This document shows positions 2,800-39,280 of a stretch of DNA of 64,000 bases, in pieces. The stretch is from a virus. The stretch lies in the IMG/VR virus record IMGVR_UViG_3300037193_001286, positions 9,859 through 73,858 of that record. One strand, 5' to 3'. Position 1 is the first letter of the stretch. Every line of letters begins with the position of its first letter. Under the pieces are notes generated by a model, which saw only the letters and a program-made list of their open reading frames with translations, was not told the DNA's origin and ran no database searches. Made by a program: the position numbers and the translations under genes.

Positions 2800-5700
2800 T
2801 TAATAACCGTGCGCCGACCAGTCGAAGGTGCGCGCGGCAGCGATAAGCGCACCCCCGTTCAAAAGTTCTAGGTCGAAGCCGGTTCTTGACTTGTTGGTGA
2901 TGCGGAATGTGTCGCCAGCGACGCCATTCTGAATCGCTACGGATATCGACGGCGTGTAGGAGAATTTCACAGTGAAGTTGACGCGCATCTTGGCTTGCGT
3001 CCAAGCGACGTCGGCACCCTGCTCCATCTTCGAAGAGACGTCGGCGATGATCGACAATTCCTCGACGGCGACGTTCTGCCCGTCCGGCGCGTCCAGCCAC
3101 GCCTGAAACTGGAAGCCGCGCCCGATGTACTCGCCGGATATGAACTGCGCCCATGGGGACCATACCGCTGTCCCCGACGCCGGATCGTTATCGGTCTGGC
3201 GAACGCGGATCGAAACCATCCCATCGCCGTCGTCAAATGTGCTGTCGAAGCTCTGATAATTGTCCACCAGACCGTTGCGCTGGTCGATGAAGACGTCGGA
3301 CTCGTAAAACGGGAAGGCCAGCATATCGACGGAAAGGATGACCGGAAAAACGCCGCCCATGTCGATCCTGTTGCTGAACGTATAGATGCCGGTTCCCACG
3401 TTCTCGTCGGTAATGACAATCCATTCCTGCGGTAGGCGGATTGAGACGTTGGATTTGCTGCCAGCCCATGTCGGGCTTTCGCTGATGCGGATGTATTGCT
3501 TGATCCGCTGCGTCGTAAGATTCGTTACGACTGTGCTGGCATTGGCGGAAAAGATGCCGCTGATGTCGATGGCTTTGATGAGATACGTCCCCGGACGATA
3601 GGGCAATTCCGCCGTCGTCGCCGTGCCGGGGATTGAGGTGAGAACCTTGTTCGCGTTCACCCACGTCACGCCGCTGGTGCGCGACGAGTGGCGAATTTCG
3701 TAAGCACCGCCAATCATGACATCGAGTTCGGCAGACGGTGCCCACTGGAAAAGCGCGATGTCGCCTTTGACCTGAATGCGGAAATTGGCGACGTCGGCAG
3801 GTGGTGCGGTGCGCCCAATGACGGTGTACTTGATCTTTGTCGTAGCGCCGCGCCGACCGAGCATGCTGATCGGCGTCACCCATATATCGTAGTCGCCCTC
3901 CTGAACCTCGATATCGTGTGCCGTCTGGTCGACGCGCGTCCTGATCCAGTTGCCGTCCTTCGGCCGCCAGGCGATCTCGAACGCTGGCGCGGCCGATTGC
4001 CACGAAACCAGCATGCGAACGCCGATGGATATGGGCGACAGAGCGACAAGATAGTCTTTCGCATTGAGGCCGGAGATGCCCGGCACGCCGCCGATATTGG
4101 AGATGTCGACCTTCGGGAGGGGAACGTTCTTTTCGACGTATGCCCACTTTTCCGGCAGATGCCGAACCGCCGTCATTTCGTAGCGGTCACTTTCGCGTTG
4201 CCGGGCGGTCATGACGCGCCAGAGCGTCGGATTAAGATCGCTCGATGCAATCACGTAAATTGTGTCGGGCAATGGTGCCGTCGTAAAGGAGACGCCAAGC
4301 ACTGTCCGCGATCCGGCCGAGGCGGTTACCTGCGATGTCGCCACCGTCCCGTCAGGCAGCACGCATGAAGCGTAATAGACGCGTCCGGATACGATGGTGA
4401 TCGGCGCATCGAGCGTCAGCTGCGTCTTCGTCGCCGCGACAAGCCTGCCGCCCCGGCGCTCGCCGCCGATATTGACATCCGCCACTTTGACGATGTCGCC
4501 CGGCCGCGCCCATGCCGCCTCAAGCCCGGCCACGAAATCGACCGTCTCGGCTTCATAGTTGTCGGTGTACATCGCCCATTTGCCGACACGGATAGCCTGA
4601 GCTTCAGACGTGCAGCCGATGGCGTCGATTTCCTCGCGCAGCAGACCGTATTTGGAAATCGACGTGACATCCTCGACGAGGGCTGGCCGCCGCTCGCCCA
4701 GATTTTCCGGGTCGTTCCAGTAGACGGTGTACATGTTATGACGGGCGCGAACGTCGCCACCGTGATAGTTGAATGCGCCGTCGATGACGTTGGCGTTGGT
4801 ATAGAGCGCGACGGGATCGGACGGCATGTCGGCGATGGCGACCATCTGCCCGCCAGACCAGTAGGTGGCACCCCGGAAGACAGAGGCCATAGAGGCAAGA
4901 AGATCGAACGCTTCCTGTTGGGAGCTGATCACCGCGTTACAGGTGAAGCGCGGCTCGGTTCCTCCTTGCCCGTTAGGCACCAGCCCATCGCACCACTGGG
5001 CGATCTTGTAGAGCGTCCATTTGTCGATATCGGTAGCCTTGACGAAATCGCCGAGGCCGTAGCGACTTTGCGTCACAAGATCATAGAAAACCCACGCCGG
5101 ATTGTTGGTCCATGCCTGCTTGAATGTCCCGGTCCATGTGCCTGTATACTTCCGCGTCTCCGGGTCGTAGTTCGATGGCACCTGCACCAAGAGGCCCTTG
5201 ATGTCGTAGGTGCGCTTCGGGATCGACTGAAATTGCTCCGCGTCGATGGTCACGCCCATCACGGCAGACAGCGTGTAGTTCACCTTCGAATCGATGATCG
5301 ACGTGAAGGAATCCCAATAGAGATCGTTTTGCAGTTTCAGTTGCGTCGAGTCGGCGGTGATGCGCCTGATCTGGATATCCCACGGCGGATTCCCGATCAG
5401 GTCGAATGTCAGGGATCGCTGGTAGCGGGTGTTCGTCTTGCCGCTGATCTCATGCCGGGTGACCAGCTGATAGCCGCCGCCATTCGACTGCAAATATATT
5501 TCGAAGATCAGGCTGGTGCCTCTGATGTCGCCGTCGTCTTCCTGCCTCTGAAGTGCCGGAACAGAGACCGTGACGCGACAGCGATCAATATCCCCGTTTA
5601 TGATCGTGCGGGTGATCGGGGTCGTAGTCTTGACTTGCAGGTTTACGGCGGTTTCCGCCTGTTGCGCGGCAAAGCCCGACAGTAGCGGTTGGTCCGGCCA

Positions 5701-30106: not shown

Positions 30107-30628
30107 GCGCGCGGCATTCTGGATTTCCGTTGCCATCGCCCTCGCCCTGGTCTTTTTCTTGGCTGCCGCCGCGCTATGATGGGGCGTCATGAACCTCGTT
30201 CGTACCCAATCGATGCCGCCATTTGACCTGAAGGTCTATTATCAACGGCGGCACCACCGCTTCATCGTGCAGGTGTCGCATCAAGACGGCCGGAGCATCG
30301 TCGAGCACGTCGATGCGACCTATGAGCCGGTGGTCGGCATCGACTTTTCAGACAATGAAGAGATCAGCCTCGTGGCTGAGGAAATCTGCCGCCGCATGGA
30401 GCAAGGCGCGCAATGAAGTCTATCCGTGAAATCATCGCTTACAACAAGGAGCGGATGAAGGACTGCGAGGATGAGATCGCTCGCATCCAGAAGCTGCGCG
30501 AGAGCAAGGCTGTCACGACCGATGATCACGACAAGTGGATCGAGGGCTGGCGCGAGACGCGGGCGTTCTGCCGCGACACTATCGCCTATCTGACGACTCT
30601 TGAGCACTTCCAGAAGGCGTTAAAGAAG

Positions 30629-30660
30629 AAGCCCCCAAGCGGCGGCAACCGTGGGGGCTT
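30629..30660. terminator. Probable bidirectional terminator between convergent operons
   Basis: AAGCCCCCA...TGGGGGCTT inverted repeat. Confidence 0.6.
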
Positions 30661-30665
30661 CAACA

Positions 30666-31997
30666 CTACTCGTCAGTAGCTTCCTGTAGCACCGGCTGGC
30701 CGATGCCTTCGGCAGCTGCGATGTATCGCAGGATGCCTTCAGAGAAGCCGTCGATGTGCGTCCAGCCATTGCCGTAACCGACGCCGTTCCGGTAGGAAGC
30801 GACGTTGATCATGTAGGCACGATCCGCACGCGGCGGCGGCACAACGTCTGCCGTCTGCTCATCGGAGATGACGATCAGGCGGTCATGCCACTCACGGTTC
30901 GCACGCTCGATGGCCCTACCAAGATAGGTGCCCATGTGCATCTGCGAGCTGATCACCGCATCGACGCCAGCCATGCCGCGACGCGCCGGGACTTCCTTGA
31001 TGTCATTCGAGAACGAAAACACCCGCAAGTCGCCGTTGATCACCGACGCCAGAGCGGCGGCGGCATCCATCCGCATCATGTCCGAACGCTGCGATAGCCG
31101 CGTGTTCATCGAGCCGGAGACATCGACGAGGACAATCGTCTTGCCCGGCAGCTCGACGCCTTCAGACACCGCCTCGACCAGCGCCTGATCGATCACCCCT
31201 TCCAGCTGCGGCGCGGCGCGAGCGGCAGCAACGTAGCGGAACGGGAAGACCATCTTGGCACCACGGCGAGCAAGGATCGCCTCCTTGACCAGATCGAGGT
31301 CGGCACCTGCCTCGACCATGTTGCGCAGGTTGCGCAACAGAGCGAGGTAGCCGATCTTCCCCTCCCGGATCAGGCGTTCGAACGTCTCCTTCTTGTCGGC
31401 ACCCCCGGACAGCGCGACTTCCCACGTATCCGGCGTCACCAGCTCACGGTTGGCGAGCCGCTTGTAGAGCGATTCACGCTCCGGCGTCTTGCCCTTGGCG
31501 TGCGACAGGAACAGCACGTCGCGAAGGCGGACCATGCCGTCACGGTCATACTTCGCCAGCGAATACTCGTTGAACTTGTCGAAGGCAGCAGCCAGCCCGC
31601 GCTTCATCTGGGCGGACAGCGGACGCTTGCCGCCACGCCAGTAGAGCGCAACCAGTTCTGCCAGCTCATCCGGGCGCGTGATCGTCGCGGTGATCGCCTC
31701 GGCAACGCCGGGACCGCCTCGACGGACCAGATCGAGAAGCAGCATCAGTGGTGCATGGCGAAGGCCGTGGACGGTACGCGCCTCGACAGCGAGCGCCGCA
31801 ACGTCGTCCTTCTTCACCTTCTCTGCGGTCACCATGATGCGGTCGGCGATGGTCTCCCCGTCCTCGTAGAACTGGTTTTCCCATAGGAGACATGCGAGCA
31901 CGGACCGGCGCAGCTGCAAGATCGGCGAAAGTCCGCCGACAGCGCGAGCGCCCTCGTGGGTGAACTCAGTCTTCCGGATTGGCTTGTTGGTGCGCAT
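30666..31997 (-). CDS. rsr: Ro60-related TROVE/vWA RNA-binding protein
   Basis: LRR.V..CLLWE..FYE, RPDEL, F.EY.LAKY, TWE, ALLRNLRN, PFRY and vWA DVSGSM motifs; start re-assigned to ATG 31997 with an AAGGA RBS. Confidence 0.93.
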   Translation of the reverse strand: MRTNKPIRKTEFTHEGARAVGGLSPILQLRRSVLACLLWENQFYEDGETIADRIMVTAEKVKKDDVAALAVEARTVHGLRHAPLMLLLDLVRRGGPGVAEAITATITRPDELAELVALYWRGGKRPLSAQMKRGLAAAFDKFNEYSLAKYDRDGMVRLRDVLFLSHAKGKTPERESLYKRLANRELVTPDTWEVALSGGADKKETFERLIREGKIGYLALLRNLRNMVEAGADLDLVKEAILARRGAKMVFPFRYVAAARAAPQLEGVIDQALVEAVSEGVELPGKTIVLVDVSGSMNTRLSQRSDMMRMDAAAALASVINGDLRVFSFSNDIKEVPARRGMAGVDAVISSQMHMGTYLGRAIERANREWHDRLIVISDEQTADVVPPPRADRAYMINVASYRNGVGYGNGWTHIDGFSEGILRYIAAAEGIGQPVLQEATDE

Positions 31998-32061
31998 GAT
32001 CGAAATTCCTTTGGTTGGCCTACGCCACCGTGGGTTTTCCATCAGCGCCCAGGAGGAAGGT

Positions 32062-32130
32062 GGGCGGGAATAATCGCCAGACGGTCTGGACATCATTTCA
32101 AGTGAAGTAACCGTCAGCTTCGCCACGCCC
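32062..32130 (-). ncRNA. Y-RNA-like element D (short, about 69 nt)
   Basis: GGGCG/CGCCC terminal stem, UGGCGAAG...AUUCC motif, GACGG/CCGUC helix, UACUUC. Confidence 0.75.
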
Positions 32131-32139
32131 GTTTTCCGG

Positions 32140-32246
32140 TCCAGCGGGAACTATCGATACGGTCACATGCCTGATTTGAACAGGCACCACCCGGCTTAAA
32201 GCCGATGGTTCATCCACGAAGTATCCGTATCTTACGCCACGCCGGA
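32140..32246 (-). ncRNA. Y-RNA-like element C (about 107 nt) with a T-arm-like hairpin
   Basis: UCCGGCG/CGCUGGA stem, UGGCGUAAG, UACGG/CCGUA, UACUUC, GCCUG-UUCAAAU-CAGGC. Confidence 0.8.
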
Positions 32247-32254
32247 GAAAACGA

Positions 32255-32394
32255 AGGGTCTGGCGGGAATTGACGAAATCGGGCTTTTTGCTGTTGCTCT
32301 ACCGCTGAGCTAACCCCCTTTCGGGGGTACTGGATTCGAACCAATGACCTACAGTTTATGAGAAGTATCCGATCTCTTCGCCACGCCAGACCCT
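32255..32394 (-). ncRNA. yrlA: YrlA-type Y RNA with a circularly permuted tRNA domain (element B, about 140 nt)
   Basis: 11-bp terminal stem AGGGUCUGGCG/CGCCAGACCCU; GGCGAAG; T arm AUUGG-UUCGAAU-CCAGU precedes a GAAA-capped acceptor stem ACCCCC/GGGGGU and D arm GCUC-AGCGGUA-GAGC; next to rsr. Confidence 0.9.
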
Positions 32395-32411
32395 ATAAGA
32401 ATCTCCATAGC

Positions 32412-32483
32412 GCCAACGGGAATAAGCGGAAACGGTCTGGCTCTCTATTGACAAGAAGTAACCGTTACCTTCGCCACGTCAGC
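32412..32483 (-). ncRNA. Y-RNA-like element A (short, about 72 nt)
   Basis: GCUGACG/CGUUGGC stem, UGGCGAAG, AACGG/CCGUU, UACUUC, AUUCC. Confidence 0.75.
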
Positions 32484-32489
32484 AATTAA

Positions 32490-32518
32490 GGAGTAAATGC
32501 AAATTTGTCGGATTGCAA
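32490..32518 (-). promoter_or_regulatory. Putative promoter of the Y RNA-rsr operon
   Basis: TTGCAA-17 bp (containing CAAATTTGC)-TACTCC; predicted +1 near 32483 coincides with the 5' end of element A. Confidence 0.6.
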
Positions 32519-32588
32519 GCTTGTAATTACCTAATAGGCATATTATCACTATGTACAGAGACGGCCGCTGGGGCTGTCTTCGCTAATT

Positions 32589-33707
32589 TTGGAGAAACTC
32601 ATCGTGTCGGACGTAATCATTTGCGGCTTCGCCGCCACCATCCAGTACATCAATCCCAAAAATGTTGAATTCGATATTCACCCGGCAGCCAAGCTGTTTC
32701 CAGTCCCGACTTCGGAGGATCGCGCGGCGCTCAAGGCGTCGCTCGTCGAGCACGGTTTCAGCTCGACCAATCCGATCATCGTCTATGCGGATCGCAATCA
32801 GATCGTCGATGGACGGACACGCTGGGCCATCGAAAAGGAGCTGAAGCGCGACTTGGAAATCCCGGTTGCGTTCGTCCAATTTCCCGATGACGAAGCTGCA
32901 AAGCGCTTCGCGCTGTCGCAGAACCTTGGCCGTCGCCACCTCACCCGCGAGCAGCGCGACCAGATGATCAACGATCTCGTTTTCGACGGCTGGGCGGTCA
33001 AGGACTTGGCCGAGATGTTCGGCATCTCCGAATCGGCCGTCACCAAGATCACGACGGAAACCCGCGATCTCATCGAAGAAGAACGCAACAAGAAGATCGT
33101 CGCCCTTGTCGACGAAGGTAAAACGCAGCGCGAAGTGGCTGAGGAAGTCGGCGTCAACGCGGCGACCGTGAACCGCGTGTTGCAGAAACGGACAAAATCC
33201 GAAATCGCAACGGACGGCAGCTGGCTGAACAAAAAGCCCGCCGTCGAGCCTGTCGTCAAGCCGACCGAAATCGATCCGCTGAAGATCACCGCCGTCCAAG
33301 CCAAGCAGGACGAGAAGATCGAGCGTCAGGTCGCCAAGAAGGTCGAACAGGCTCTCAAGGTCGAGCGCAAGAAGCTCGACAAGGAATTCGACGTGAAGGT
33401 CCGCGAGGCTGCCGACGCCTTCGTCAACCAGAACATCCTGCCGGTCTATGGCAAGCGCATCGAGCTGGCCGAACAGATCATCGCCTCGCACAAGGGCGTC
33501 ATGACGAAGTCCCAGTTCCGCAAGGTGCTGTCTGTCCTTCACCCGGATTCGACGCAGGATGAGGAACACAAGAAGAAGCTCGCTGCTGTCTTCGACATGT
33601 TCAAGTCGCTGGAACCGGTGCTGATCGAACCCAAGACGGCCGAAATCGAGCCGCTGGCGGCAACCGTCGAAGAATTCACCGCCAAGAAGACGCGGAAGGC
33701 TGCATGA
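32589..33707 (+). CDS. ParB/Srx N-terminal domain protein with HTH domains
   Basis: HPAA.LFP, L..SL...G...PI, IVDGR.R and SQN..RRHLT..QR motifs; two HTH-like segments; start uncertain. Confidence 0.8.
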   Translation: MEKLIVSDVIICGFAATIQYINPKNVEFDIHPAAKLFPVPTSEDRAALKASLVEHGFSSTNPIIVYADRNQIVDGRTRWAIEKELKRDLEIPVAFVQFPDDEAAKRFALSQNLGRRHLTREQRDQMINDLVFDGWAVKDLAEMFGISESAVTKITTETRDLIEEERNKKIVALVDEGKTQREVAEEVGVNAATVNRVLQKRTKSEIATDGSWLNKKPAVEPVVKPTEIDPLKITAVQAKQDEKIERQVAKKVEQALKVERKKLDKEFDVKVREAADAFVNQNILPVYGKRIELAEQIIASHKGVMTKSQFRKVLSVLHPDSTQDEEHKKKLAAVFDMFKSLEPVLIEPKTAEIEPLAATVEEFTAKKTRKAA

Positions 33708-34570: not shown

Positions 34571-34593
34571 AACCGCCTTCGGGCGGTTTTTTT
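34571..34593. terminator. Rho-independent terminator
   Basis: AACCGCC-TTCG-GGCGGTTTTTTT. Confidence 0.85.
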
Positions 34594-36199
34594 ACGCGAT
34601 CAGCGCGTCGATATCGACCGAGTTTTCCGTCTCAAGCTTCAGTGCCGCAATCGCCATGATCGCCGCCACGGCAGGGTCTATGCGCCCGGTGGACTTCGAT
34701 TTTTCCGGCTTGCGGTTGTTCGCGGCGTCGAAAGCGACCACGACGTTGGACATCGCCCAGCGCAGCACCGGATGCCCGCCATGGCGGATGCGCCCCTGTA
34801 GCGCCAGCTCCTCGACCAGATCGAGCGACGGCCCCATATCCTTGAAGCCTTGGCCGTGGCTCATCAGCGGTATGATAAGCCCCTGCCGCGCCAAGGATTG
34901 CCGGAAAACGTCGATCCGCCAGCGGTCGTAAGCGATCTTGTGGAACGGGATCGTCTTCGACAGCTCGCCGATGTCACGCGCAAGGAAGTCGTAATCAAGC
35001 GCCTCGCCCGGAACCGGGATCATCAGATCGCGATCCGCCCATGCCCGGTATGGCGCACGGTCGCGGATGGCGCGCGCGTCGAGCGTATCATTCGGCGTCC
35101 AGATGCGCGGCATCAGATGGATGATGCCCTCGTCATCCTCGACCGCCATCACCAGCGCCGAAAGGTCCACCCTCGCCGACAGGTCGAGGCCCGCGCCGAC
35201 TTTGCGATCCGAATAGAACAATGCCTCATTGATTGCCTCATCCCCCCTCGCCCAGACCGCCTGAGTGAGGAATGGAGCTTTAGCCTGGACGCGCTGGTTC
35301 AGGTACAGATTGCGCACCGACGCTTCCAGCGCGGGCAGCTTCACGGCGCGGCCCATCATCGTGCGGAACTCGTCGATGTCGCGATAATCGCCCAGTGTCG
35401 GATTGGCCTTCAGCCACTGCTTTTCGTCGAGCAGCTTGCACTCTGGATCGGCGGCATAGAGGTGAACCGTGAAGGTCTCGTCCTCGATCACGCCCGCCTT
35501 CACTTTGAGGCCATAGTCGATCAGTTCGGAAAGAAGGTGCTCATCGCTCGCCGCTTGCGTCGAAATAACCATCATCAGCGGCTCGACCTGCGATCCAAGC
35601 GACGTCATCAGCGCGTCATAGAGCGCCGAATTCTTCGACTGGGCCAGCTCGTCATAGATCACGAAATCCAGACCCTCGCCGAATGCGCCACCGGCATCCG
35701 CTGAGATCGCCGTGTAGGTCGAGCCGTCCTCCTTGTGGACGATCACCTTCGACGAGTTGATCACCTTCAGCTTCTTCATCAAGGCGCGATTGCGGAAGAC
35801 GATGGTCGCGACCAGGCGGTGGATGATGCCAGCTTGCTTGCGGGTCGTCGCGGCGCTGACGATCGTCGAGTTCGGCTTCTTGAATGGACCGACCAGGTGC
35901 AGCAGCAAGATCACCGCCGCAAGCAGCGATTTCCCAGCGCGCCGGCCGACTGAAAGTATCCCTTGCCGCCTTTTGCGCCGCCCATCCTCTGTTCTGGGGT
36001 TATAGACGTCCCGGATGAAGTCGATCTGGAACTGTCGAAGGCGAAGCGGCTGGTTGACATATTTACCGGCCGGGACGACCAGCGAATGAGCGAACGCGAT
36101 GGCCAAGCCCGATGGCAGATCCCAGTCCTCTTTGGGAACGTCCAGCGCCTTCATGCGTCGATGCCGGAGTTGCCGTTTGTCCTTCACGATCTGGTCCAT
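34592..36199 (-). CDS. terL: Terminase large subunit
   Basis: Walker A GRRAGKS, Walker B IYDE, ISTQ, GLDLS..DL.A, YDRW and RIDP.VA motifs. Confidence 0.95.
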   Translation of the reverse strand: MDQIVKDKRQLRHRRMKALDVPKEDWDLPSGLAIAFAHSLVVPAGKYVNQPLRLRQFQIDFIRDVYNPRTEDGRRKRRQGILSVGRRAGKSLLAAVILLLHLVGPFKKPNSTIVSAATTRKQAGIIHRLVATIVFRNRALMKKLKVINSSKVIVHKEDGSTYTAISADAGGAFGEGLDFVIYDELAQSKNSALYDALMTSLGSQVEPLMMVISTQAASDEHLLSELIDYGLKVKAGVIEDETFTVHLYAADPECKLLDEKQWLKANPTLGDYRDIDEFRTMMGRAVKLPALEASVRNLYLNQRVQAKAPFLTQAVWARGDEAINEALFYSDRKVGAGLDLSARVDLSALVMAVEDDEGIIHLMPRIWTPNDTLDARAIRDRAPYRAWADRDLMIPVPGEALDYDFLARDIGELSKTIPFHKIAYDRWRIDVFRQSLARQGLIIPLMSHGQGFKDMGPSLDLVEELALQGRIRHGGHPVLRWAMSNVVVAFDAANNRKPEKSKSTGRIDPAVAAIMAIAALKLETENSVDIDALIA

Positions 36200-37321: not shown

Positions 37322-37350
37322 TTGCTATTCGTCAAACTTGCCTTTATGTA
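37322..37350 (+). promoter_or_regulatory. Island promoter P1
   Basis: TTGCTA-ttcgtCAAACTTGcctt-TATGTA; repeated at 38168, 39215 and 40587. Confidence 0.75.
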
Positions 37351-38167: not shown

Positions 38168-38195
38168 TTGCTATTAGTCAAACTTGCCATATGGA
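38168..38195 (+). promoter_or_regulatory. Island promoter P2
   Basis: TTGCTA-ttagtCAAACTTGcca-TATGGA; second box TCACATTTGC just upstream. Confidence 0.7.
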
Positions 38196-39214: not shown

Positions 39215-39243
39215 TTGCTATTAAGCAAGTTTGCCTATATGTA
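39215..39243 (+). promoter_or_regulatory. Island promoter P3
   Basis: TTGCTA-ttaagCAAGTTTGccta-TATGTA; TCAAATTTGC just upstream. Confidence 0.75.
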
Positions 39244-39280
39244 AGAAGGCATAGGGCAAACACGCTTTGGAGCGAGGCAA

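What the first reader, a model, noticed from the sequence alone, without database searches (positions are those of the whole stretch)
30666..32520. Phage Ro60 (Rsr) gene with a tandem array of four modular Y RNAs
Seen in sequence: 420 bp upstream of the TROVE gene hold four units on the same strand. They share one scaffold: terminal stem, CGUGGCG(A/U)A, an inner helix, UACUUC, a variable cargo, then UUCCCG. The inner helix covaries between units (AACGG/CCGUU, AUCGG/CCGAU, UACGG/CCGUA, GACGG/CCGUC), which indicates selected RNA structure. The cargo differs. Unit B carries a full permuted tRNA (T arm, GAAA-closed acceptor stem, D arm), unit C a hairpin plus a lone T arm, and units A and D only loops of about 18 nt. 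Established knowledge: bacterial and some phage Ro60 genes lie next to Y RNAs, and YrlA has a GNCGAA-type Ro stem and a permuted tRNA domain. Inference: a constant Ro-binding handle with four interchangeable effector modules, including minimal RNAs of about 70 nt that YrlA models would probably miss, would let one Ro protein be tethered to different partners during infection.
Basis: partly seen in the sequence, partly recalled or inferred. Interest (0 to 1): 0.88.

Follow-up and report, generated by a model that had tools for sequence, protein, structure and literature searches.

The report
Four Y RNAs beside phage Ro60
A complete 74-kb soil phage carries, in front of its gene for the ring-shaped RNA-binding protein Ro60, four small RNA genes that share one docking handle but hold different inner parts; this is real but is a typical member of the known Ro60/Y-RNA partnership, found beside this type of Ro60 in well over a hundred phage and bacterial loci.

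Summary
On the minus strand, a 443-aa TROVE/vWA gene (30666-31997) is preceded by four co-oriented units: A 32411-32484, B 32256-32393, C 32140-32246, D 32062-32130. All four share a terminal stem, GGCG(A/U)AG, an 8-bp inner helix, UACUUC, a cargo and UUCC. B is a sub-threshold YrlA (permuted tRNA). C has a hairpin plus a T arm. A and D are about 70 nt.

A covariance model built from the scaffold alone hits only this locus in the phage. It gives 95 hits in 45 related viral loci and 152 hits in 80 bacterial rsr loci. All hits are on the rsr strand and nearly all lie upstream. In an alignment of 76 of these hits, all 15 modelled pairs show compensatory changes.

These are therefore almost certainly Ro60 partner (Y) RNAs, probably made as one transcript with rsr. 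The idea of one handle with several effector modules is already the published model for Y RNAs (YrlA/YrlB; phiLo Yrl1/Yrl2). This scan has reported similar arrays on other DNA many times.

One detail may be new: many units, including D, carry an anticodon-arm-like hairpin. Expression, Ro binding and partners remain untested.

The parts
32490..32518 (-). Promoter/operator-like element: TTGCAA (-35-like), a spacer holding CAAATTTG, then TACTCC (-10-like, 17-bp spacing). It predicts a start at about 32482-32484, the first base of unit A.
   Evidence: The pattern TTGCN7CAAAYTTG occurs 5 times in the window against 0.58 expected. Aligned copies at 37322, 38168 and 39215 show TATGTA or TATGGA at the same spacing. 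The generic sigma-70 scan found nothing. Function is inferred.
32411..32484 (-). Unit A, a minimal Y RNA of about 72-74 nt: 7-8 bp terminal stem, GGCGAAG, 8-bp inner helix with one U.U mismatch, UUACUUC, and a 5-bp/7-nt hairpin (32441-32457).
   Evidence: CM R1 73 bits, E 1.3e-15. Fold. Parsed.
32256..32393 (-). Unit B, a YrlA-type Y RNA of about 132-138 nt: 10-bp terminal stem, GGCGAAG, inner helix GAGAUCGG/CCGAUUUC. The tRNA-like domain has the anticodon-stem remnant CUGU/ACAG, variable loop AGGUC, T arm 32329-32345, GAAA-closed acceptor-like stem 32313-32328, UA, and D arm 32296-32310.
   Evidence: Rfam YrlA 41.3 bits, E 1.3e-7, below the gathering score of 69. Fold z -2.35. Coordinates. 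ARAGORN calls no tRNA.
32140..32246 (-). Unit C, a Y RNA of about 107 nt with the variant motif GGCGUAAG. Its cargo is a long hairpin (32187-32208, loop CUUUAAG) plus a lone T arm (32169-32185, loop UUCAAAU).
   Evidence: CM R1 41.9 bits, E 1.2e-7. Fold z -3.18. Coordinates.
32062..32130 (-). Unit D, a minimal Y RNA of about 69 nt. Its cargo is an anticodon-arm-like hairpin, CUUCA-CUUGAAA-UGAUG (32091-32107).
   Evidence: CM R1 72.6 bits, E 1.8e-15. Fold z -2.75. It passes the anticodon-arm-like test.
31998..32061 (-). rsr leader: no terminator-like site, an RBS-like AAAGGAA at 32006-32012, and a predicted stem that pairs the AUG region with sequence just 3' of unit D.
   Evidence: Fold z -2.4. 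Folds that pair the AUG region are also predicted in L002 (z -0.76) and L010 (z -3.86). The terminator scan found nothing here.
30666..31997 (-). rsr: a Ro60/TROVE + vWA protein of 443 aa (P0001) with the MIDAS-like motif DVSGS.
30620..30661 (-). Terminator-like hairpin directly after the rsr stop codon: GAAGCCCCCA...UGGGGGCUUC followed by UUCUUUAA.
   Evidence: Fold -27.3 kcal/mol, z -2.86. The 14-nt loop is outside the range of the standard scan. Function is inferred.

Best explanation
This is a phage-borne Ro60 (Rsr) operon with four Y RNA genes.

Shown: four co-oriented structured units share the Ro-binding-type handle of bacterial Y RNAs. The handle is GGCG(A/U)AG in a bulged helix closed by a GG:CC pair and a terminal stem. 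The units sit directly 5' of a TROVE/vWA gene. The handle is kept by compensatory changes in more than 200 units next to rsr homologues in phages and soil bacteria.

Inferred:
- One phage promoter (32518-32490) drives a single A-B-C-D-rsr transcript that ends at the hairpin at 30661-30620.
- Host RNases cut the transcript into RNAs of about 70-135 nt, as shown for M. smegmatis YrlA/YrlB.
- Each RNA docks on the phage Rsr ring through the common handle.
- The different cargoes present different surfaces to host factors. The cargoes are a full permuted tRNA in B, a hairpin plus T arm in C, and short anticodon-arm-like hairpins in A and D.
- The phage encodes no RtcB, RNA ligase or PNPase-type domain and no tRNAs, so the partners must be host proteins. 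The most likely are PNPase or other exoribonucleases (a RYPER-type complex, as reconstituted for phage phiLo) and tRNA-binding enzymes.
- The net effect would be re-targeting of host RNA decay or quality control, or protection against RNA-directed defence, during infection.

The confidence given (0.8) is for the identity of the units as Rsr-partner Y RNAs. The specific partners and the biological role are much less certain (about 0.4).
For: - Gene identity. Complete phage genome.
- Units and motifs. YrlA-like unit B.
- Scaffold model specificity: it hits only this locus in the phage genome. It gives 95 hits in 45 viral TROVE loci and 152 hits in 80 bacterial loci. All hits are on the TROVE strand. 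All 152 bacterial hits lie upstream, as do all but a few viral ones.
- Covariation: 94.2% paired against 63.4% in shuffles and 44-51% in slid controls; 15 of 15 pairs have double changes. RNAalifold on a plain MAFFT alignment finds the same structure, with 12 of 16 pairs compensatory.
- The closest homologous array, L002 (76% identical Rsr), also has four units but with different cargo order.
- Published precedents: the GNCGAAN0-1G Ro motif, at least two Y RNAs per species, a single precursor and a T arm in YrlB (PMC4201824); phiLo Ro60 binds two upstream Yrl RNAs and forms ternary complexes with host PNPase (PMC12135203).
- No RtcB, RNase PH or RNA ligase domains in the phage and no tRNAs.
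- Promoter-like motif. Terminator-like hairpin, and none between D and rsr.
Against: - There is no expression, end-mapping or binding data. No RNA run holds the sequence.
- Unit B is below the Rfam gathering score, and A, C and D match no curated family.
- Unit C's motif, GGCGUAAG, does not fit GNCGAAN0-1G exactly.
- The promoter and terminator are consensus-level inferences, and the sigma-70 scan found none.
- The alignment used for pair counts was fitted to the model. This is mitigated.
- Partner identity and biological role are extrapolated from Deinococcus, Salmonella and phiLo.
Confidence: 0.8

Rival explanations
1. The units are cis-acting parts of the rsr mRNA leader, not free RNAs. Rsr would bind Y-like sites in its own 5' UTR to control its translation or stability.
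For: The units abut rsr with no terminator between them. The leader can pair the AUG region with sequence just after unit D in the window, L002 and L010.
Against: In related loci the same units lie up to 1.5 kb upstream, or downstream of rsr (L014, L025, L031). M. smegmatis YrlA and YrlB are processed from such a precursor into stable Rsr-bound RNAs (PMC4201824). An extra GGCGUAGG in the window's leader is not conserved. The two roles are not mutually exclusive.
Confidence: 0.08
2. The cargoes act mainly as tRNA-part decoys or baits (anticodon arm, T arm, whole tRNA shape) for host tRNA-targeting nucleases or tRNA enzymes. Rsr would serve only to stabilise or position them.
For: Anticodon-arm-like hairpins (at least 4/5 bp, 7-nt loop, Y32, U33, R37) occur in 13 of 26 viral and 25 of 59 bacterial tRNA-type units, and in 10 of 49 viral and 13 of 55 bacterial minimal units. 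Shuffles give about 0.5-0.9. Unit D is one of them. In 37 of 85 tRNA-type units the spacing to G53 is exactly that of a tRNA. A Ro60-like protein of phage Bas63 was reported to counter the Ppl defence system (PMC11482910).
Against: There is no evidence for any nuclease target. The same arrays sit beside chromosomal rsr in many bacteria, which argues for a general RNA-metabolism role rather than a phage-specific counter-defence. Unit B of this phage lacks the hairpin, and A departs from the loop rules (G32, U37). The 'anticodons' are diverse and show no clear pattern.
Confidence: 0.1
3. The units are decayed tRNA genes or chance repeats without function.
For: Unit B resembles tRNA. A record annotation calls part of one CcrColossus unit a tRNA-Gln.
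Against: ARAGORN finds no tRNA. Both strands of the handle covary across more than 70 distinct sequences. There is a strict strand and position link to rsr across phyla.
Confidence: 0.02

Closest known systems
Bacterial Rsr with YrlA/YrlB Y RNAs (S. Typhimurium, M. smegmatis; Chen et al. 2014, PMC4201824; Rfam RF02553)
   Same: A TROVE/vWA protein with Y RNAs on the same strand within a few hundred bases. GNCGAA-type motif near the 5' end. One RNA has a permuted tRNA domain (T arm, closed acceptor stem, D arm). Additional smaller Y RNAs are present, one of them with a T arm. A conserved YUAY (here UUAC of UUACUUC) follows the stem. In M. smegmatis the RNAs lie upstream of rsr and are cut from one precursor.
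   Different: There are four units rather than two. Unit B scores below the Rfam threshold. There is no rtcBA/rtcR context. The host is a phage. The handle is conserved on both strands, with UUCC on the 3' strand pairing GG, whereas Chen et al. recognised only the 5' strand in Salmonella and M. smegmatis.
Thermus phage phiLo Ro60 with Yrl1/Yrl2 (Hu et al. 2025, PMC12135203; PDB 9KOP, 9L5Y)
   Same: It is the closest solved relative of the protein (E 1.9e-24). It is phage-encoded with Y-like RNAs next to the gene. Binding to the RNAs and a ternary complex with host PNPase were shown in vitro. The phage has no PNPase of its own.
   Different: The proteins are only about 28% identical. There are two RNAs, defined by a CGAA motif. 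My scaffold model does not hit the upstream region. It gives one weak hit just downstream of the gene.
D. radiodurans Rsr-Yrn1/Yrn2-PNPase (RYPER) and the four human Y RNAs
   Same: Modular RNAs with a Ro-binding stem plus an effector module. Several Y RNAs serve one Ro protein. The Y RNA tethers Ro to an exoribonuclease.
   Different: The handle sequence differs (metazoan-like GGUCCGA helix). The tRNA-like part has a different orientation or is absent.
Listeria phage CKA15 (PMC12282133)
   Same: Three highly transcribed non-coding regions lie within 2 kb upstream of an Rsr-like gene, in the same direction. The authors suggested they are Y RNAs.
   Different: It is a different phage group. No shared scaffold was shown, and identity as Y RNAs is unproven there too.

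Membership tests
Ro60/Rsr (TROVE) protein | TROVE domain | tested here: met
   Pfam PF05731 scores 41.7 bits against a cut-off of 23. PHROG 850 gives 2.1e-46 over residues 9-429.
Ro60/Rsr (TROVE) protein | C-terminal vWA domain with a MIDAS motif | tested here: inconclusive
   VWA_CoxE scores 22.3 and VWA_2 scores 21.2 bits, both just under their cut-offs. A DVSGS motif is visible in the translation. No fold was predicted.
Ro60/Rsr (TROVE) protein | Full-length homology to a structurally solved Ro60 | tested here: met
   phiLo Ro60, 9KOP/9L5Y, E 1.9e-24, query residues 13-426.
YrlA (Rfam RF02553) | Reaches the family's gathering score | tested here: not met
   Unit B scores 41.3 bits against 69 (E 1.3e-7). 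A, C and D have no YrlA hit.
YrlA (Chen 2014 criteria) | GNCGAAN0-1G near the 5' end | tested here: met
   GGCGAAG in A, B and D. C has GGCGUAAG, which has one extra base and is not an exact fit.
YrlA (Chen 2014 criteria) | T arm, closed acceptor-like stem and D arm in that order | tested here: met
   Unit B only: 32329-32345, 32313-32328 and 32296-32310. C has a T arm only. A and D have none.
YrlA (Chen 2014 criteria) | Within 4 kb of a Ro60 orthologue and on the same strand | tested here: met
   The units lie 65-490 nt upstream of the ATG on the same strand.
Y RNA (functional definition) | Bound by Ro60 and accumulates as a discrete small RNA | not testable with these tools
   No RNA run holds the sequence. 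This needs RIP, EMSA or Northern blots.
tRNA | Recognised as a tRNA gene with free acceptor ends | tested here: not met
   ARAGORN finds none in the window. The acceptor stem of B is closed by GAAA.

The most novel reading that the evidence does not exclude
The arrays are a graded library of tRNA parts displayed on one Ro60 handle: anticodon arm only (like unit D), anticodon-type hairpin plus T arm (like C), and a whole tRNA. In about 45% of the tRNA-type units the hairpin that Chen et al. called the 'V' stem-loop is really a retained anticodon arm. It has a 5-bp stem, a 7-nt loop with Y32 and U33, three variable bases and R37, and then a 5-nt variable loop and the T arm at exact tRNA spacing. 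On this reading the tRNA is permuted at position 26/27 rather than opened at its anticodon loop. The phage would use Rsr-held anticodon-arm mimics as decoys or sensors for host anticodon nucleases or tRNA-modifying enzymes.
Probability: 0.1. Interest if true: 0.75.

Novelty: new member of a known kind. Interest (0 to 1): 0.4.

Why it matters
The locus adds a clean, compact example: a complete 74-kb phage with no tRNAs and no RNA-repair genes, carrying a self-contained promoter, four Y RNAs, rsr and a terminator.

The scaffold model built from it shows that multi-unit arrays are the rule for this Rsr clade. My parser counted 1-6 units per viral locus and 1-5 per bacterial locus, and I counted about eight handles by eye in Caulobacter phage CcrColossus. 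The clade spans soil Acidobacteriota, Alphaproteobacteria and their phages. The papers I could search describe two or three RNAs per locus.

The practical value is threefold:
- a handle-only model that finds the roughly 70-nt Y RNAs that Rfam misses;
- tractable systems for testing what the different cargoes bind (CcrColossus on Caulobacter crescentus, Xanthomonas phage Bolivar);
- the observation that many cargoes keep an anticodon-arm-like hairpin.

It does not change the concept of what Ro60/Y RNA systems are.

Tried and rejected
- Rfam at gathering thresholds over the whole window gave nothing. At relaxed E-values only unit B appeared, as YrlA.
- ARAGORN found no tRNA or tmRNA.
- The generic sigma-70 promoter scan found none in 30500-32700, and the two terminator-like sites it found are on the other strand.
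- Sequencing runs: no RNA holder is listed. Two RNA runs of a label-matched organism, laid on the stretch, gave zero reads, which is no test. DNA contigs from soil metagenomes hold it.
- A fifth GGCGUAGG at 32019-32029 in the rsr leader looked like a half-handle, but it lacks UACUUC and a 3' partner and is absent from the leaders of the related loci. It is treated as chance.
- My first two 3'-end parsers over-extended several units or picked up coding-region false positives. Counts per locus from them are approximate, and L002 unit B was mis-cut.
- A U36-A37-A38 bias seen in the viral tRNA-type units did not hold in the bacterial set. I dropped it as a general rule.
- The supplements to Chen 2014 and the 2020 Annual Review (PMC10870794) are not held. 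I could not check which phages or how many RNAs per locus they list.
- NCBIfam has no model matching the protein.
Full report
**What is there.** The window is most of a complete 73,858-bp virus record with direct terminal repeats. On the minus strand an ORF at 30666-32126 contains a TROVE domain (Pfam 41.7 bits, cut-off 23) and weak vWA matches. The likely start is the ATG at 31997, preceded by AAAGGAA, which gives a 443-aa protein. This protein matches PHROG 850 'RNA-binding protein' over its whole length (2e-46). Its best solved relative is the Ro60 of Thermus phage phiLo (9KOP/9L5Y, E 1.9e-24).

**The four units.** The 420 nt upstream, read on the same strand, hold four units:
- A, 32411-32484
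- B, 32256-32393
- C, 32140-32246
- D, 32062-32130

They are separated by 9-18 nt spacers. Each unit has a terminal stem, then (G/A)U, GGCGAAG (GGCGUAAG in C), an 8-bp inner helix, N-UACUUC, a cargo, the other strand of the inner helix, a short linker ending in UUCC whose CC pairs the first GG of the motif, and the closing strand of the terminal stem.

Unit B carries a T arm, a GAAA-closed acceptor-like stem and a D arm, and is a sub-threshold Rfam YrlA match (41.3 bits against 69; E 1.3e-7). Unit C has a long hairpin plus a T arm. A and D are about 70 nt. Rfam at gathering thresholds and ARAGORN find nothing in the window.

**Is it more than chance, and is it conserved?** I built a covariance model (R1) from nine minimal units, two from the window and seven from relatives, modelling only the handle.
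- In the phage genome it hits only this locus.
- In 45 viral contigs encoding relatives of the protein (27-76% identity) it gives 95 hits at E<1. All are on the TROVE strand and nearly all lie within 1.5 kb upstream.
- In 80 bacterial loci (Acidobacteriota, Bradyrhizobium, Caulobacterales, Mesorhizobium and others) it gives 152 hits at E<=0.01. All are on the rsr strand and upstream.

On the 76 best viral hits, 94.2% of cells pair, against 63.4% in shuffles and 44-51% when partners are slid. All 15 modelled pairs show changes on both sides, including the GG:CC pair. That alignment is fitted to the model. However, RNAalifold on a plain MAFFT alignment of 13 units predicts the same three helices, with compensatory changes in 12 of 16 pairs.

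**Array architecture across relatives.** My parser is approximate. It finds 1-6 units per viral locus and 1-5 per bacterial locus. A typical array has one full tRNA-type unit plus one to four smaller ones. The closest array, L002 (76% identical Rsr), also has four units, but its third is minimal and its fourth carries the T arm. Cargo therefore changes faster than the handle.

Cultured phages carry the same scaffold. Xanthomonas phage Bolivar has three hits in an unannotated 700-nt gap. In Caulobacter phage CcrColossus I count about eight GUGGCG(A/U)AG handles by eye in 1.2 kb upstream of gp139, with three sub-threshold YrlA matches.

**Operon signals (inferred).** A motif TTGCN7CAAAYTTG occurs five times in the window (0.58 expected). 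One copy lies at 32500-32518 on the minus strand, just 5' of unit A. The aligned copies share a -35-like TTGCWA and a TA-starting -10-like hexamer at 16-17 bp. This places the predicted start at about the first base of unit A. No terminator-like site lies between D and rsr. A strong hairpin followed by UUCUUUAA sits right after the rsr stop codon. This fits one A-B-C-D-rsr transcript that is then processed, as shown for M. smegmatis YrlA/YrlB.

**How it most likely works.** The handle contains the motif that Chen et al. (PMC4201824) proposed as the Rsr-binding site of YrlA/YrlB (GNCGAAN0-1G). UUAC corresponds to their conserved YUAY. Y RNAs are established as modular adaptors with a Ro-binding stem plus an effector module. 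In Deinococcus and Salmonella they tether Rsr to PNPase. Phage phiLo Ro60 binds two adjacent Yrl RNAs and forms ternary complexes with host PNPase.

This phage has no RtcB, RNA ligase or RNase-PH/PNPase domain and no tRNAs. Its four Rsr RNPs must therefore act through host factors. That the RNAs are discrete, bind Rsr and recruit different partners is inference.

**A detail that may be new.** Directly after UAC, many cargoes form a 5-bp stem with a 7-nt loop. This register (offset 4, loop 7) stands out against all other offsets and loop sizes: 15 perfect stems against about 1 expected. I then required at least 4/5 bp plus Y32, U33 and R37. The counts passing that test were:
- 13 of 26 viral and 25 of 59 bacterial tRNA-type units;
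- 10 of 49 viral and 13 of 55 bacterial minimal units;
- about 0.5-0.9 in shuffles.

Positions 30:40 and 31:39 show all four Watson-Crick pairs. In 37 of 85 tRNA-type units exactly 9 nt separate the hairpin from G53-UUCRA, usually reading AGGUC plus four stem bases. That is the spacing of a class-I tRNA.

This hairpin is what Chen et al. called the less-conserved 'V' stem-loop. It looks more like a retained anticodon arm. That fits the published idea that YrlA arose from tandem tRNAs.

In this window, unit D passes the test (CUUCA-CUUGAAA-UGAUG). Unit A has the shape but not the loop rules (G32, U37). Unit B lacks the hairpin and instead has the open anticodon stem (CUGU/ACAG) of Salmonella-type YrlA. 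There is no evidence that these loops act as decoys.

**Comparison and novelty.** The protein is a Ro60. Unit B meets the descriptive YrlA criteria but not the Rfam threshold. A, C and D are YrlB-like companions for which no curated model exists. Multiple Y RNAs per Ro60 are published: four in humans, at least two in three bacteria, two in phiLo, and three candidate regions in Listeria phage CKA15. This is therefore a new member of a known kind.

Earlier notes of this scan describe very similar arrays of four to ten units beside phage Ro60 on other DNA and reached the same verdict. Those notes are unchecked AI notes, and I did not use them as evidence. I score it 0.4 for a well-supported but ordinary example with a useful model and one possibly new structural observation.

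Noticed in passing
window 32500-32518 (-), 37322-37340 (+), 38168-38186 (+), 39215-39233 (+), 39226-39244 (-): A shared promoter/operator-like design, TTGCWA followed by a spacer with CAAAYTTG and a TA-starting -10-like hexamer, links the Y RNA-rsr operon to several sites at 37-39 kb. There are 5 copies against 0.58 expected.
   Followed up: partly
window 31990-32066 (-); L002 2932-3012; L010 2958-3012: The rsr leader is predicted to pair the start-codon region (AUGCGC) with a complementary stretch just 3' of the last Y RNA (z -2.4, -0.8 and -3.9). This could be a translational control or processing-dependent switch.
   Followed up: partly
window 32019-32029 (-): An isolated GGUGGCGUAGG lies in the rsr leader. 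It resembles the 5' half of a handle but has no UACUUC or 3' partner, and it is not conserved in the leaders of related loci.
   Followed up: yes
L128 (Caulobacter phage CcrColossus NC_019406) 1250-2450: About eight GUGGCG(A/U)AG handles lie in a row upstream of gp139 (RNA-binding protein). The record's 'tRNA-Gln' (locus 1664-1731) starts at one of these handles and runs through its anticodon-like hairpin and T arm. ARAGORN calls no tRNA there and Rfam gives sub-threshold YrlA matches, so the annotation is probably part of a Y RNA.
   Followed up: partly
L129 (Thermus phage phiLo MH673673) 3482-3543: The scaffold model gives a weak hit (24.5 bits, E 2.8e-4) just downstream of the Ro60 gene. 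It contains GGGUACUUC and UUUCCGCCCAG and overlaps the annotated start of phiLo_25. It may be a further Y-like RNA beyond the published Yrl1 and Yrl2.
   Followed up: no
loci L042-L045 (TROVE proteins only 27-30% identical): Units upstream of these distant TROVE genes keep UUACUUC and the two-helix layout but replace GGCG(A/U)AG by AGUGA. The UACUUC element is therefore more conserved than the presumed Ro-binding motif.
   Followed up: no
window 30620-30661: The terminator-like hairpin after rsr lies inside the last codons of the convergent + strand ORF 30413-30679. It could end transcription from both directions.
   Followed up: no
window 34592-36199 (-) and 32589-33707 (+): A terminase large subunit (PHROG 9, 3e-113) lies on the minus strand, and a ParB-like/HTH protein is divergent from the Y RNA promoter. 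The rsr operon is a lone minus-strand unit between + strand early-type genes.
   Followed up: no
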